DNA from: a virus
Lineage: Duplodnaviria; Heunggongvirae; Uroviricota; Caudoviricetes
Virus record (IMG/VR): IMGVR_UViG_2737471845_000004
Strand: one strand, 5' to 3'
Length of the DNA stretch: 7,123 nucleotides
The position numbers were made by a program. Shown here piece after piece: positions 3,001 through 7,123 of this stretch. How positions within the stretch are numbered: position 1 is the stretch's first letter; each line of letters begins with the position of its first letter.

Positions 3001-6000
3001 AACTGACGGCGCGGCATTACGCAGTCATATTCGTAAGCCTCACGGCGGTAGGTGATATTGCCTGGCGTAACGTGACGAATAACCACCCGTCCCCCGCGTC
3101 TGGTGTCCCGGAAAATATCACCGGGGCGGATTTCAGGCCGAGAGAGGCCGCTGGCAGTAAAGCCAGAATTTTTCTTTTTCATGGTTTTATTTTCCTGTCA
3201 GCAGTTCCGGTTTTATTTCCGCACGAATACAAAGTTCAGAAAAAAATTCAGGAGAACCAACAATCTCATTACTTTTCAGTCGGCATTGTGATTTCACTTT
3301 CCCTTTATCCAGGTAAACCAGTACGCGTCCGGTGAAATCATCTGGCACATTAAGCACTACGGGTACATGCGCTCCATGATTATGCATGGCTTACATCCTC
3401 CGTGAATTTTCTTCTGTAACGCGTCTCTGCCACATATTCCGCATAGTCCGACGCAATACTAAGAATCATTTCACCCTCTGACTTGTAGCCACTGGTATTG
3501 ATAAGAAAATATGCAGCTTTCATCATGTCAGCAACGCTCAACAATGCGCCCGCTGCATCTTCCGGTGCGCCATCAAATTCCCGTTTCAGGGAATTAAAAC
3601 GATCATCACGCATGTTTACCCCCCTGAATGACCTGATAACCGCAACTGGTCAGCAACTCGATAAATTCCGGCAGTGTGCCGAAACAGCAATCATCACGCA
3701 GCCGTTCGCAGGATACCTCGACGCCGTTTTCGTAGTGACTCACCATACGTCCGGTAAAATGCAGATCATCATCGTGATGGCTCGTTGACGGCTTAATCAG
3801 TCGCGCACGTTCCGCCAGTTCCAGCAATGTTTCAACGCTTCCGGCAATTGCACCATCCGGCAGGTGATAATTACGCACTATGCGCCCGTTCTCCACATTG
3901 ACCAGCAACTGCCCGGTAAATTTCTCGTCAAACTGAATGCTGTTAAGGTCAGAAATTGACAGGTTATGCATGGTGCACCTCCTGGCGAATACGGGCGGCA
4001 AATACCATCACGCAGCCATCAGGAGATTGCTGGCGTGCTTCCTGTTCGCTGGTGGCCACGATGTGAATCACGCGCGGTTGTGCGGTGCTCAGGGCGATAA
4101 AACGCCAGATAAAATTGTTTTCGCATTTCTGAATAAACAGCGTGTTTTCTTCGCGCCCTTTCCATGTTGCCGAGATATAGCCCATGTCATTGAGCATCTC
4201 GCAGGCATCCACCAGCGTATCGGCGGCTACATGAACAGTGTTTTTACCGTCAGCCATGCAATCACGGTGCACCGCCAGGAAGGTGTATATAAATTTAGGG
4301 TGAGTTTGGGTATGCTGTGTTCCAGCCATAATCGTTACCTCGTTTAACGGTTTGGTTAGACGCCCCGCTACTGCCGCAAACAGTTCGGGGCGTTGTCGTT
4401 TACATCCTCTTACTGAGGTGTGATTTAAATTAAAATCAACTGAATCACAGGTCAAGTATTTTTTGTGATTCTTTTTTGTGTATACTGAATCACATCTTTT
4501 GTTTAGGAGAATGCACATGGCAAAAAACACTATCAACGACAAATCAAAACAGATTTCAATTCGTATCCCACATGATGCTTTTGAAGGCATGGAATCCGTA
4601 AAACTGGACGGCGAAAGCAACGCCGGATTCATAGTAACCGCCATGCGTGGTGAAATCGCCCGCCGCCAGGCAGAAGGAAGAGGAGAAAATCCCCTGGTTT
4701 CTTCGCTCGATGCACTGGCGCAGGTGGAAAAAATCGGTGTCAAAGCGGCCGAGGAGATCGGGCAGCTCGTCACCGTCGCGCGTGAAGAACTCCAGCGACG
4801 CAAGGTCAAAGAGCAGGAATAGCCACTATCAGCGCCATAGTTTGAGGAACGCAGGCGCATTGCTTTACAGGACAGCACCATGAGCGACACAGAATCAACC
4901 AAAACACCATCACCAACTCGTAAGAGACGACGCAAAAATATAGCGCATGAACATGAATCAGAAAGATTCGCACCTTGTTCGTTTGCTCTTGAGAAATTCC
5001 TTAAAGAGCACAGGAAAAAGCTCTCGTTGCAAACCTTGGAACGAACCAAATCTGACTGATCACATTGCCCACCAGCCGCAAATGTGGCATTGTTGGTGAT
5101 GCGTTCAAGTATGTAGCTTTTCCACTGGCGGCTCTCTGCGGTCGCCTTTGTTTTATCCAGAACGAAATCAGACATCAGATTGATCAGCACCTGGCGACCT
5201 GACAAAATCGCATCAGTCGCGCCACCAGCAAAATTTTTTGCTTTCCGGACAGCGTGGCCAACGGCATTTTGCAGCAAAATATTCTGCATTTCTGGCGTGC
5301 TGTAGTAATGGTGATCAGTGCCTTCACATTGAACGAACTTGTCGCTAAAATTCACCCACATAGCAAACATCGCGGTGCTGTAGGTAATTCGTTCACAAAG
5401 GCGCTCCGGCAACGGGGCGCTTTCTCTTTTTGTAACGGTCAGAGCGTTACACATGGCTGTTTTCCTCCATGCGACGGGCTAACCAACGTTGGTAATCATC
5501 TGTGAGCTTTGTGAAAAGATTATTTATTGCCTCAGTTCTCCATTTTTCAGCTTCTGACTTAAATTTATCTTTATCACTTATATCTATAATAAACTCGTCA
5601 AAATCAGAGTCTTCAAAAATATCTTTATCTGCAAAATTCTCCCAATCCTCCCTTAATTGATGCAATGTAGACTCTTCAAATCCCCGTGGATATACAGAGT
5701 AGGCCTTTTGGCCTTGCTGAAGAAAAACGCCCCCCACATTGTGAATCAATGAAGCAACATATGGGGAACAAGCTGCACCATAGTTCTTAAGAAAGTTAAT
5801 TGCTGTATCAGATAATATTCTGCAAAGTACTTGTTCGTATTTAGTGTGTTCCTCATGTGCACTAAACCATAAGAACAAGTTTTCGTAGCGTTCTACACCT
5901 TTGTTAACTAATTCTGTCCCAGGAACACCTATTTTTGATGTGTCGATGGCAATTGCTTTAACCGTATCAAAATCAGCAGAAAACCATTCACCAGAACGGC

Positions 6001-7123
6001 GTTCTGATGAAAGTTTTGCATGAATAGATAATTCAACTTGTCCGTAATTAACAAATGGCCCCAAAACCTCAACTTTAGTGATTTCGATGCCGCTACCACT
6101 AGATAACTGTTTCATTCTGGCTGAAACATCTCTAGTTTTTCCCACCTTCACTAATCCAATATCAGACAGTGCGACATAGATATAACCACCTTCATGATTA
6201 GATGGGATAACAAAATTTTGTTGGCTCTGGTTTTCAGGCCGAACGAAGCCCCGCCCCTGTACGGGCGTTTTTGGAAATTTCATAAAAACTCCTGCTATCG
6301 AATTAAGTTACTTTTATTTGCTGGTGGATAGCTGGGGGCAATAGCCCCGTAGCCATTTAATCAGGTAGCTGTTCCGCGTGATTCCGCAATACGCTGATTA
6401 ATCCACTCGTCAATTTCACTCTCAACGAAAGCAATAGCTCGCGAGCCAATTTTAACTGATGCAGGAAATTTACCTTGCCCCATAAGGCGATAAATCCATG
6501 CCTTGCTATATCCAGTTCTACGCTGAACTTCCGTTAAACGAATAAGCGTATTTGACATATATTTACCTCATAACGTCTACTCAATTTGACGAGGTAATCA
6601 TGGCACAGAAATAACGAATATTTTCATACCCTCAGGCCTAATGGTAATCGGGAATATTTTTACCCTAAGGGTAATAGTAAAATTGATGGGAAAGCATACA
6701 AAAATACCCTAAGGGTGAGGTCTGATTACCCTTAGGGTGAGACGCGAACAAAACATGAGATACCACTAGGGTAAGGCTTCATCGTTTGATAGGACAGGCG
6801 ACAAGCTCAATAGATGCGGCCTGTCGGGAGGTAAAACCTCGTTTTTCAAGCTCAGTAGTAATCGCGCCCTGGTTTCCCCTGGTGGCGCGGAGCCTGTTCA
6901 GGATTCTGTGTAAATACCTTTTCTCAGAAGTGGCCGTCCAGGCGGTCACCGAACTCGATAATAAAGCGGCTCATTGCCATACGCCAGTCCCGCAGTGGCA
7001 TCGTCCATTTCTGTGAAGCCGCCTGGATTGCCAGCCACACCACTTTTTTCACCGAGTCGTCTGTCGGGAACACTTTACGCTTTTTGATCGCATGGCGGAT
7101 CACGCTGTTTAGCGACTCGATGG

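What the first reader, a model, noticed from the sequence alone, without database searches (positions are those of the whole stretch)
5447..6283. Low-GC T5orf172/GIY-YIG-like cargo gene between the alpA-like regulator and the replication operon
This gene is clearly more AT-rich than its flanks and uses TTA/ATA/AGA codons, which suggests it was acquired separately from the island backbone. Its N-terminus matches the T5orf172 (GIY-YIG-related) domain, with the Tyr-Tyr, Arg and Glu positions present, fused to a C-terminal half I do not recognise. Satellite and prophage accessory slots often carry anti-phage or inter-element competition genes, so this is a candidate nuclease-type defence or exclusion effector, possibly the first gene of a two-gene module together with the ORF starting at 5454.
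Basis: partly seen in the sequence, partly recalled or inferred. Interest (0 to 1): 0.7.

Follow-up and report, generated by a model that had tools for sequence, protein, structure and literature searches.

The report
Swappable nuclease-like gene in phage satellite
This is a real gene in an E. coli phage-satellite island that joins a T5orf172 (GIY-YIG-type) nuclease-like head to an acidic domain of unknown fold; it sits in the island's known domain-swapping "Bro zone" after alpA, so it is an uncharacterised member of a known kind, not a proven defence gene.

Summary
The ORF is real: 5447-6283 on the minus strand, 278 aa. Residues 33-112 pass the Pfam thresholds for T5orf172 and MUG113. Its GC is 0.39, against about 0.49 in the flanks.

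The window is an EcCIMP1-like Gram-negative PICI (phage-inducible chromosomal island). The gene lies directly after alpA, in the published "Bro zone" of domain-swapping proteins.

Sister islands carry AntA/AntB, or Rha + T5orf172 (+ BRO-N), at the same place. All alleles keep the same 24-codon leader and 14-codon tail. Only the interior, 5492-6212, is exchanged.

The C-terminal half folds confidently. It is acidic (pI 4.4-5.1) and has no neighbour in PDB or BFVD. It occurs only in this family.

All four contexts examined outside E. coli (Salmonella twice, Providencia, Xenorhabdus) are int-alpA-...-primase islands. No phage record holds a full-length copy. The gene is under purifying selection (dN/dS about 0.23).

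The proposed partner ORF at 5454 is not a T5orf172-specific partner. It is a backbone ORF that stays open in all five islands checked, whatever fills the slot, much like P4 eta.

My best guess, at 0.4, is a helper-induced nuclease effector used in conflict between satellite and phage. A non-cutting regulator and a homing-type selfish cassette remain live rivals.

The parts
5447..6283 (-). T5orf172/MUG113-domain gene, 278 aa, annotated by PGAP in relatives as 'GIY-YIG nuclease family protein'
   Evidence: ORF list. Pfam. Homologs P0001-P0012 all carry PF10544 + PF13455. dN/dS is 0.22-0.24.
6213..6283 (-). Backbone-derived 24-codon leader (MKFPKTPVQGRGFVRPENQSQQNF), shared with the AntA and Rha alleles of the slot; predicted disordered
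   Evidence: BLASTP and hhalign. Rha translations. DNA homology to the AntA island L002 stops at 6213. pLDDT of about 30. The GQGFxxPE motif is kept in Providencia through synonymous changes.
5947..6187 (-). T5orf172 (GIY-YIG-clan) domain, aa 33-112; Y36, K46, R56, E84 and E99 are invariant
5492..5911 (-). Orphan acidic C-terminal domain (aa 125-264). Residues 121-200 exist as two old allele types.
   Evidence: AF2 on the domain alone: pLDDT 87.6, pTM 0.78. No PDB or BFVD neighbour. Only P0006 and P0012 match among 1.84 billion representatives. pI is 4.4-5.05 in all homologs. dS is about 0.9 for aa 121-200 against 0.13-0.39 elsewhere.
5447..5491 (-). Backbone-derived 14-codon tail (QRWLARRMEENSHV). 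It carries a GGAGG Shine-Dalgarno sequence and the ATG (5454) of the next ORF.
   Evidence: Identical tail in AntA proteins. DNA homology to L002 runs up to 5491. Sequence read directly.
5492..6212 (-). The exchanged cassette core, GC 0.372
   Evidence: Breakpoints against the AntA allele. GC.
6361..6558 (-). alpA, the PICI master regulator, immediately upstream. No promoter-like site was found between it and the gene.
   Evidence: Pfam Phage_AlpA 2.4e-19. Promoter scan. Role of AlpA in EcCIMP1 (PMC11773190).
3964..5454 (-). Backbone long ORF (496 aa) with an Icd-like C-terminus, translationally coupled to the slot gene. It is not a T5orf172-specific partner.
   Evidence: Open in 5 of 5 islands, with 0 stops against 10-36 in the other frames, even where the sequence is unrelated. 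Icd-like NF033153 1.6e-20 on the last 58 aa.

Best explanation
The gene encodes a modular 'Bro-zone' protein of an EcCIMP1-like phage-inducible chromosomal island.

**Shown**
- It lies directly downstream of alpA with no promoter-like site in between.
- It has a conserved T5orf172 (GIY-YIG-clan) domain with the Arg and Glu positions invariant.
- That domain is fused to a well-folded, acidic, family-restricted C-terminal domain.
- Its first 24 and last 14 codons are island backbone. The tail carries the ribosome-binding site and start codon of the next ORF.
- The interior is exchanged among islands.

**Inferred**
- The gene is transcribed with alpA once a helper phage switches the island on.
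- The T5orf172 head nicks or cuts DNA.
- The acidic C-domain binds a protein partner, from the phage or the island, that decides when or on what the head acts. It probably does not read DNA sequence itself.
- The target is helper or rival phage DNA. The protein would then be an interference or exclusion effector, analogous in logic to the nuclease effectors of the Vibrio PLE/ICP1 conflict.
For: - Pfam T5orf172 and MUG113 are above their cutoffs.
- Y36, K46, R56, E84 and E99 are invariant down to 37% identity.
- The T5orf172 domain is the most constrained part of the gene, with dN/dS 0.12-0.15.
- T5orf172 nuclease activity that depends on the conserved Glu has been shown for ICP1 Odn/Gp88 (PMC8263062, PMC10448857).
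- The model has GIY-YIG-like secondary-structure order and weak GIY-YIG fold hits.
- The gene follows alpA with no intervening promoter-like site. AlpA is the helper-induced master activator in the sister island EcCIMP1 (PMC11773190).
- All four contexts examined outside E. coli are int-alpA-...-primase islands. No full-length copy exists in 50,697 phage records.
- The C-domain carries old, recombining alleles at aa 121-200, as expected for a specificity or interaction surface.
- EcCIMP1 gives an unexplained superinfection immunity with no known defence system (PMC11773190). Functions of this kind may therefore sit in this zone.
Against: - Nothing here shows activity.
- The canonical second Tyr of GIY-YIG is Lys, and PF01541 itself does not match.
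- The slot-mates AntA, Rha and BRO-N are regulator or antirepressor-type domains. This suggests the slot's job may be regulatory.
- The one studied satellite relative of this domain network, PLE CapR, works as a repressor without a nuclease domain (PMC8096241).
- The acidic C-domain gives no obvious way to choose a DNA target.
- PADLOC gives only a partial, domain-level hit to an untested candidate.
- The EcCIMP1 immunity phenotype comes from an AntA-type island, not a T5orf172-type island.
Confidence: 0.4

Rival explanations
1. A non-cutting regulator. Like other Bro-network proteins, it binds DNA through the T5orf172 fold, or binds a phage repressor or regulator through the acidic C-domain in an antirepressor-like way. 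It would tune helper or island gene expression, and nuclease chemistry would be irrelevant or lost.
For: - The same slot, inside the same leader and tail frame, holds AntA/AntB, Rha and BRO-N proteins.
- The Bro zone has been described as holding domain-swapping DNA-interactive or regulatory proteins (PMC10111431).
- PLE CapR is a domesticated relative that acts as a repressor (PMC8096241).
- An acidic C-domain fits binding to a basic DNA-binding protein.
Against: - The residues equivalent to the catalytic Arg and Glu, and the whole motif set, are invariant over deep divergence.
- The nuclease-like domain is the most constrained part of the gene.
- CapR lost the T5orf172 domain, whereas this protein keeps it.
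Confidence: 0.25
2. A homing-type selfish cassette. The nuclease cuts the Bro zone of islands or phages that lack it, and repair copies the cassette in. This would drive the mosaicism of the zone.
For: - A 900-nt tract (5400-6299) with a single mismatch is shared with strain A17, inside flanks that are 10-30% diverged.
- The same gene sits on islands with different integrases, attachment sites and replication modules.
- Its GC is persistently foreign.
- T5orf172 homing genes sit at recombination boundaries in ICP1 phages (PMC10448857).
- PMC10111431 raises nuclease-driven mobilisation of Bro genes.
Against: - The gene is fused in frame to the backbone leader and tail rather than free-standing.
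- It has no recognisable DNA-binding domain, and its C-domain is acidic.
- It holds the same position across genera at 37-50% identity under purifying selection.
- Sharp mosaic tracts also occur elsewhere in the window without a nuclease nearby, for example 4950-5299.
Confidence: 0.2
3. A conventional host-protecting defence gene carried as satellite cargo. It would be a constitutive or abortive-infection nuclease acting against unrelated phages.
For: - PADLOC gives a partial hit to the candidate PDC-S57, 2.4e-7.
- Satellites are known carriers of defence systems (PMC10085698 abstract).
- The gene has low GC and is mobile.
Against: - The hit covers only about 70 of 212 profile positions and is a domain-level match.
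- The gene sits in the alpA operon, not in a described satellite defence hotspot.
- No promoter-like site of its own was found.
- The alternative alleles are regulator-type proteins, not defence systems.
Confidence: 0.12

Closest known systems
Bro-zone / Bro-network proteins of Gram-negative PICIs (PMC10111431) and the AntA 'antirepressor' gene of EcCIMP1 (PMC11773190)
   Same: - Same genomic position, directly after alpA and before the replication genes.
- Same mosaic, segment-swapping build.
- Shares the 24-aa leader and the 14-aa tail with AntA alleles, and the leader with Rha alleles.
- The island backbone is 94% identical to an EcCIMP1-type island over 83% of the window.
   Different: - The body is T5orf172 plus an orphan acidic domain. 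T5orf172 is not among the ten Pfam families that paper used to define the network, and it is not mentioned there.
- No function is known for any of these PICI proteins.
ICP1 Odn (Gp88) and the T5orf172 homing endonucleases of ICP1 phages (PMC8263062, PMC10448857)
   Same: - T5orf172 domain with the Arg and Glu positions conserved.
- Modular build.
- Used in, or located at, the conflict zones between phage and satellite.
- Neighbours are Rha- or Bro-N-type genes.
   Different: - Those genes are phage-encoded, with an N-terminal DNA-binding domain and a C-terminal T5orf172 domain.
- Here the gene is satellite-encoded, the order is reversed, and the partner domain is acidic and of unknown fold.
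- No ICP1 record appeared in tblastn at E <= 1e-3.
PLE CapR and NixI (PMC8096241; bioRxiv 10.1101/2021.07.12.452122)
   Same: These are satellite-encoded early proteins aimed at helper-phage DNA, acting by repression or by nicking. The proposed logic of use is the same.
   Different: - CapR is only the DNA-binding part of a T5orf172-family endonuclease and has no T5orf172 domain.
- The NixI text retrieved does not assign it a T5orf172 domain.
- No sequence relationship to either was tested or seen here.
I-TevI-type GIY-YIG homing endonucleases
   Same: N-terminal catalytic module, a linker, then a C-terminal module. The model has the GIY-YIG secondary-structure order.
   Different: - PF01541 does not match.
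- The second Tyr is Lys.
- The C-terminal module is not a recognisable DNA-binding domain.
P4 vis-eta arrangement (as summarised in PMC10111431)
   Same: The gene after the alpA homolog is translationally coupled into a long ORF, and keeping that ORF translated prevents termination. Here the tail of the slot gene carries the SD and ATG of a long ORF that is always open.
   Different: - No sequence similarity to P4 was found.
- There were no C4 or isrK RNA hits.
- An extra swappable gene sits between alpA and the long ORF.

Membership tests
Pfam T5orf172 (PF10544) / MUG113 (PF13455), GIY-YIG clan | Profile match above the curated gathering score | tested here: met
   T5orf172 scores 39.0 bits (cutoff 20) over profile positions 1-96 of 101. 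MUG113 scores 44.3 bits (cutoff 22.3) over 1-70 of 73. All 12 family members carry both domains.
Pfam T5orf172 (PF10544) / MUG113 (PF13455), GIY-YIG clan | Conserved motif residues: Tyr in strand 1, K/Y-x-G in strand 2, Arg in helix 1, Glu before the last helix | tested here: met
   Y36, K46-V47-G48, R56 and E99 (GEWF) are invariant in alignment A1. Assigning them to catalytic positions rests on my hand alignment to I-TevI from memory and on the description of Gp88 in PMC8263062.
Pfam T5orf172 (PF10544) / MUG113 (PF13455), GIY-YIG clan | GIY-YIG alpha/beta fold | tested here: inconclusive
Pfam T5orf172 (PF10544) / MUG113 (PF13455), GIY-YIG clan | Metal-dependent endonuclease activity | not testable with these tools
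   Needs biochemistry.
Canonical GIY-YIG (PF01541) | Profile match, and both motif tyrosines (GIY ... YIG) | tested here: not met
   PF01541 is not reported at E <= 0.1. The second Tyr position is Lys46.
Bro zone / Bro network of Gram-negative PICIs (PMC10111431) | Located between the integration zone (int, alpA) and the replication zone | tested here: met
   alpA is at 6361-6558 and the D5-type primase at 1090-2895. The layout is the same in L001-L005 and L007-L010.
Bro zone / Bro network of Gram-negative PICIs (PMC10111431) | Shares swapped segments with proteins carrying AntA, Rha or Bro-N domains | tested here: met
   The leader is shared with AntA and Rha, and the tail with AntA. hhalign gives 93.6% probability for the leader only. 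DNA breakpoints are 5491/5492 and 6212/6213.
Bro zone / Bro network of Gram-negative PICIs (PMC10111431) | Carries one of the ten Pfam families used to define the network there | tested here: not met
   Only T5orf172 and MUG113 are found. T5orf172 is absent from that paper's text. Its link to Bro-N and KilA-N is stated in PMC8096241.
Free-standing homing endonuclease gene | Nuclease domain plus a sequence-specific DNA-binding domain | tested here: inconclusive
   A nuclease-type domain is present. The partner domain is of unknown fold and acidic, pI 4.9.
Free-standing homing endonuclease gene | Alleles with and without the gene at the same site, with co-converted flanks | tested here: inconclusive
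   Alternative alleles exist, and so does a sharply bounded tract with a single mismatch. The gene is nevertheless in frame with backbone codons, and similar tracts occur elsewhere in the window.
Free-standing homing endonuclease gene | Cleavage of the cognate gene-less site and biased inheritance | not testable with these tools
   Needs cleavage assays and crosses.
Known or candidate anti-phage defence system (PADLOC-DB v2) | Full-length match to a system protein model | tested here: not met
   Only PDC-S57, at 2.4e-7, covering aa 43-111 against profile positions 18-89 of 212. This is the T5orf172 domain alone.
Known or candidate anti-phage defence system (PADLOC-DB v2) | Protection against phage | not testable with these tools
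   Needs plaque assays.

The most novel reading that the evidence does not exclude
E. coli-type PICIs use an AlpA-controlled T5orf172 nuclease as a weapon against helper or rival phage DNA. Its activity or target would be set by a new-fold acidic domain that recognises a phage protein, and the two old allele types of that domain (aa 121-200) would give different phage specificities. This would be the first nuclease-based interference mechanism in the PICI family, paralleling the nuclease warfare between Vibrio PLE and ICP1. It would also assign a function to the otherwise uncharacterised Bro zone.
Probability: 0.25. Interest if true: 0.65.

Novelty: new member of a known kind. Interest (0 to 1): 0.4.

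Why it matters
About 6% of complete E. coli genomes (313 of 5426) carry this gene. It lies in the first operon a PICI switches on when a helper phage is induced, yet nothing in that zone has a demonstrated function.

If the protein is an active nuclease aimed at phage DNA, it would add a new interference mechanism to PICIs. It might also help explain unexplained satellite-mediated immunity, such as that reported for EcCIMP1.

If it is instead a regulator or a homing cassette, it still offers a clean model for how the Bro zone swaps gene bodies inside a fixed frame of leader, tail and translational coupling.

As it stands, this is a well-supported annotation refinement. It is not a discovery.

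Tried and rejected
- **Canonical GIY-YIG family.** PF01541 does not match.
- **Solved relatives by sequence.** None for the single protein. The family profile gives only a chance-level glutamate dehydrogenase hit at E 0.51.
- **Fold searches.**
  - Foldseek against PDB has nothing at E <= 0.001.
  - Foldseek against BFVD with the C-domain model finds nothing.
  - The AlphaFold database library was unavailable.
- **C-terminal half against 1.84 billion representatives.** Besides two family members there are only TPR-repeat giants, matching one 30-residue helix motif. I rejected these as a short motif resemblance: the model shows a beta-hairpin there, not a TPR.
- **Homology between the T5orf172 body and the AntA body.** None beyond the leader and tail.
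- **Immunity RNAs.** I looked for the Rfam C4 and isrK families reported in other Bro zones. There are no Rfam hits at E <= 1 anywhere in the window.
- **P4 eta homology of the long ORF.** Not found.
- **Codon-position analysis of the long ORF.** It is uninformative where the ORF overlaps ylcI, because the third codon positions of the two strands coincide. It shows no third-position bias in the first 60 codons.
- **Species-level scan of genomes.** Only one further full-length locus was found, in Xenorhabdus beddingii.
- **Literature.** No paper in the library links T5orf172 with PICIs.
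Full report

The window has an ATG-initiated ORF on the minus strand at 5447-6283 (278 aa), with an AGGAG ribosome-binding site 7 nt upstream. Residues 33-112 match Pfam T5orf172 (1.2e-9, 39 bits against a cutoff of 20) and MUG113 (2.8e-11, 44.3 bits against 22.3). Both families belong to the GIY-YIG clan. The canonical GIY-YIG model PF01541 does not match.

The gene has GC 0.389 and GC3 0.312, and it uses TTA x8, ATA x5 and AGA x4. The exchanged core 5492-6212 is 0.372, while the sequences on both sides are 0.49-0.51. 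One caveat applies: alpA, a backbone gene, has the same GC3 (0.318) in this window.

The compositional signal is nevertheless robust across genera. The gene is about 4-12 GC points below its neighbouring island genes in E. coli, Xenorhabdus, Providencia and Salmonella. The alternative occupants of the slot, AntA and Rha, sit at backbone GC.

**What the surroundings are**

All on the minus strand, the window reads as follows:
- an IS256-family (IS1414) fragment at 6882-7123;
- alpA at 6361-6558;
- the T5orf172 gene;
- a long ORF, 5454-3964, ending in an Icd-like domain;
- several small genes, then DUF4222;
- a D5-type primase at 1090-2895;
- a ProQ/FinO-like gene at 175-717.

A convergent plus-strand unit is embedded in this run. 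It comprises a YlcI/YnfO gene at 4478-4822 and a 59-aa ORF.

Related E. coli loci complete the picture with an upstream tyrosine integrase and a tRNA or yicC attachment site. The best overall match, 94% identity over 83% of the window, is an island at tRNA-Thr next to proA. That is the site and gene order of the published PICI EcCIMP1 (PMC11773190).

A survey of Gram-negative PICIs describes four ordered zones: Integration (int, alpA), a dynamic 'Bro zone' of domain-swapping Bro-network proteins and immunity RNAs, Replication, and Late (PMC10111431). The finding is therefore the first gene of the Bro zone.

**A cassette inside a fixed frame**

Sister islands carry something else at this position:
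- an AntA/AntB 'antirepressor' (L002, and most of the sampled genomes among the 446 that have the junction);
- or Rha followed by a 258-aa T5orf172 protein, sometimes followed by BRO-N (L003, L004).

Whatever the body, the first gene after alpA starts with the same about 24 residues (MK..P.PVQGQGFVRPEN...). The last gene of the slot ends with QRWLARRMEENSHV. At the DNA level, homology between the window and the AntA island stops at 6213 and resumes at 5491. Profile comparison finds no similarity between the T5orf172 and AntA bodies beyond the leader.

The tail has an obvious reason to be fixed. Its codons contain a GGAGG Shine-Dalgarno sequence and the ATG (5454, within ATGTGTAA) of the next ORF.

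The leader is predicted disordered, with pLDDT about 30. Its core, GQGFxxPE, is kept in Providencia through synonymous changes. This suggests a constraint at the peptide level, of unknown purpose.

**The family**

A search of 5.8 billion proteins gave only 12 full-length clusters, at 37-98% identity. They come from E. coli, Salmonella, Providencia and Xenorhabdus, and all carry T5orf172 and MUG113.

The four contexts examined outside E. coli are all int-...-alpA-(small ORF)-T5orf172-...-primase islands. No full-length copy exists in 50,697 phage records; only the N-terminal domain matches, at no more than 37.5% identity, in some vibriophages. A scan of species-representative genomes found one more locus, in Xenorhabdus.

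In complete E. coli genomes the gene occurs in 313 of 5426. It is mostly the 258-aa form behind Rha. The leader-fused 278-aa form, as in the window, is rare: 3 genomes cover 80% or more of the query.

**The protein**

In the family alignment, Y36, K46-V-G, R56, E84 and G98-E99-W-F are invariant. By my hand alignment to I-TevI, written from memory, Lys46 occupies the place of the second canonical Tyr, and R56 and E99 occupy the catalytic Arg and Glu positions. ICP1 Odn shows that a T5orf172 domain can be an active nuclease that depends on that Glu (PMC8263062, PMC10448857).

The AlphaFold model has mean pLDDT 75.6 and gives a beta-beta-alpha-beta-alpha-alpha N-domain. Its best PDB neighbours are GIY-YIG proteins, but only weakly.

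Modelled alone, the C-terminal half is confident, with pLDDT 87.6 and pTM 0.78. It comprises helices, a three-stranded sheet, an acidic stretch and a 40-residue terminal helix. It has no neighbour in PDB or BFVD. Among 1.84 billion representative proteins its only real relatives are two clusters of the same family. It is acidic in every homolog, pI 4.4-5.05. That argues against a classic sequence-reading DNA-binding domain and for a protein-interaction or regulatory role.

**Selection and mobility**

Pairwise dN/dS is 0.22-0.24 overall and 0.12-0.15 in the T5orf172 domain, so the gene is functional. Residues 121-200 exist as two old allele types, with dS about 0.9 against 0.13-0.39 elsewhere. 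These alleles reassort independently of the rest of the gene.

Between the window and strain A17, a 900-nt tract (5400-6299) containing the gene has a single mismatch. The adjacent 100 nt on each side carry about 30 differences. The two islands also have different alpA genes and different replication proteins.

The cassette therefore moves between island backbones by recombination.

**The proposed partner ORF**

The ORF starting at 5454 (496 aa) is not a T5orf172-specific partner. An ORF that starts on the stop codon of the last slot gene and ends in the Icd-like segment is open in all five islands examined:
- 382-551 aa long, with 0 stops, against 10-36 stops in each of the other five frames;
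- none of 2000 shuffles per locus is stop-free.

This holds next to AntA and Rha + T5orf172 alleles too, and even where the sequence is unrelated (L004) or the middle is replaced (L005).

Its middle is antisense to the ylcI unit. That unit has its own plus-strand terminator-like hairpins at 5127-5146 and 5398-5423.

This resembles the P4 arrangement summarised in PMC10111431. [quoted passage not shown] I found no sequence similarity to P4 and no C4 or isrK RNA.

**How it most likely works**

The following is shown:
- position in the alpA transcription unit, with no promoter-like site between alpA and the gene;
- an intact and constrained nuclease-type domain;
- an orphan acidic partner domain with old alleles;
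- restriction to satellite-type islands in every context examined;
- exchange of the cassette between islands.

The rest is inferred. After a helper phage induces alpA (PMC11773190), the protein would be made early. Its T5orf172 head would nick or cut DNA, and the C-domain would couple that activity to a protein partner.

I favour helper or rival phage DNA as the target, at 0.4. The rivals are:
- a non-cutting regulator or antirepressor-like protein, in line with its slot-mates and PLE CapR (0.25);
- a homing-type selfish cassette that helps create the Bro-zone mosaic (0.2);
- a conventional host-defence cargo gene (0.12), for which the only direct support is a partial PADLOC hit to the candidate PDC-S57.

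**Novelty**

PGAP already labels the gene 'GIY-YIG nuclease family protein'. The zone it lies in and the style of domain swapping are published. T5orf172 nucleases in phage-satellite conflicts are known from Vibrio.

Several points appear not to have been described. No paper in the searchable library links T5orf172 with PICIs, and T5orf172 is absent from PMC10111431:
- this satellite-restricted family and its orphan acidic domain;
- the fixed leader, tail and coupling frame within which gene bodies are exchanged.

I therefore rate it a new member of a known kind, of moderate interest.

Noticed in passing
window 3964-5454 (-); L001 7585-9075; L002 10180-11718; L004 5381-7033; L005 5997-7145: A long ORF runs from the stop codon of the slot gene to an Icd-like C-terminus. 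It is stop-free in 5 of 5 islands (382-551 aa), although its middle is divergent, replaced or unrelated, and although it is antisense to a plus-strand YlcI/YnfO gene. The other five frames have 10-36 stops each. One possibility is that it is kept open to keep ribosomes on the alpA-operon transcript, as with P4 eta. Another is that it is a real protein with a variable middle.
   Followed up: partly
window 6213-6283 (-), and the first Bro-zone gene in L001-L005 and L008: The same N-terminal peptide (MK..P.PVQGQGFVRPEN) heads three unrelated protein bodies: T5orf172, AntA and Rha. The core GQGFxxPE is kept in Providencia through synonymous changes. The peptide is predicted disordered. The RNA of this stretch also folds better than shuffles (z = -3.0). 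Its function is unknown.
   Followed up: partly
window 5447-5491 (-): The last 14 codons of the slot gene (QRWLARRMEENSHV) are identical in AntA alleles. They contain a GGAGG Shine-Dalgarno sequence plus the overlapping ATG (ATGTGTAA) of the next ORF. A similar '...HHA stop / MCNA...' junction recurs at other gene boundaries of the operon. It may act as a module-boundary recombination sequence.
   Followed up: partly
window 5398-5423 and 5127-5146 (+): Two terminator-like hairpins with T-runs lie on the plus strand. The first has an 11-bp stem; a 71-nt stretch around it (5375-5445) folds at -23.9 kcal/mol (z = -2.5). They would end the convergent ylcI unit just before it meets the T5orf172 gene. 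The 5377-5431 piece is the most widely conserved part of the junction in E. coli and also matches strain CFT073.
   Followed up: partly
window 6661-6738: Three copies of the palindromic 12-mer TACCCTAAGGGT (one reads TACCCTTAGGGT) lie upstream of alpA, at start-to-start spacings of 44 and 22 nt. They are candidate operator sites for AlpA autoregulation or for the helper-phage inducer.
   Followed up: no
window 6882-7123, with homology to sister islands ending at about 6716: An IS256-family (IS1414-like) transposase fragment replaces the sequence where sister islands have a 265-aa gene and the integrase. This copy of the island may therefore be truncated and immobile. The window ends before this can be settled.
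   Followed up: no
window 3969-3984 against L001 7389-7589 and L002 9963-10187: The window lacks a 74-aa gene (MCNATWPD...EVHHA) that the sister islands have between the Icd-like ORF and the next gene. The deletion endpoints fall in a repeated 16-nt junction sequence.
   Followed up: no
window 5684-5923 (aa 121-200 of the T5orf172 protein): This segment is an intragenic mosaic. L005 and L003 have no synonymous difference here (three non-synonymous ones). The window and L001 carry a different old allele, with dS about 0.9. The rest of the gene has dS of 0.13-0.39.
   Followed up: partly
window 175-717 (-): A ProQ/FinO-family gene (Pfam 6.2e-24) with GC 0.58 lies at the end of the replication zone. 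In sister islands a PerC-family regulator follows it. The EcCIMP1 paper ties PerC to repression of virulence genes.
   Followed up: no
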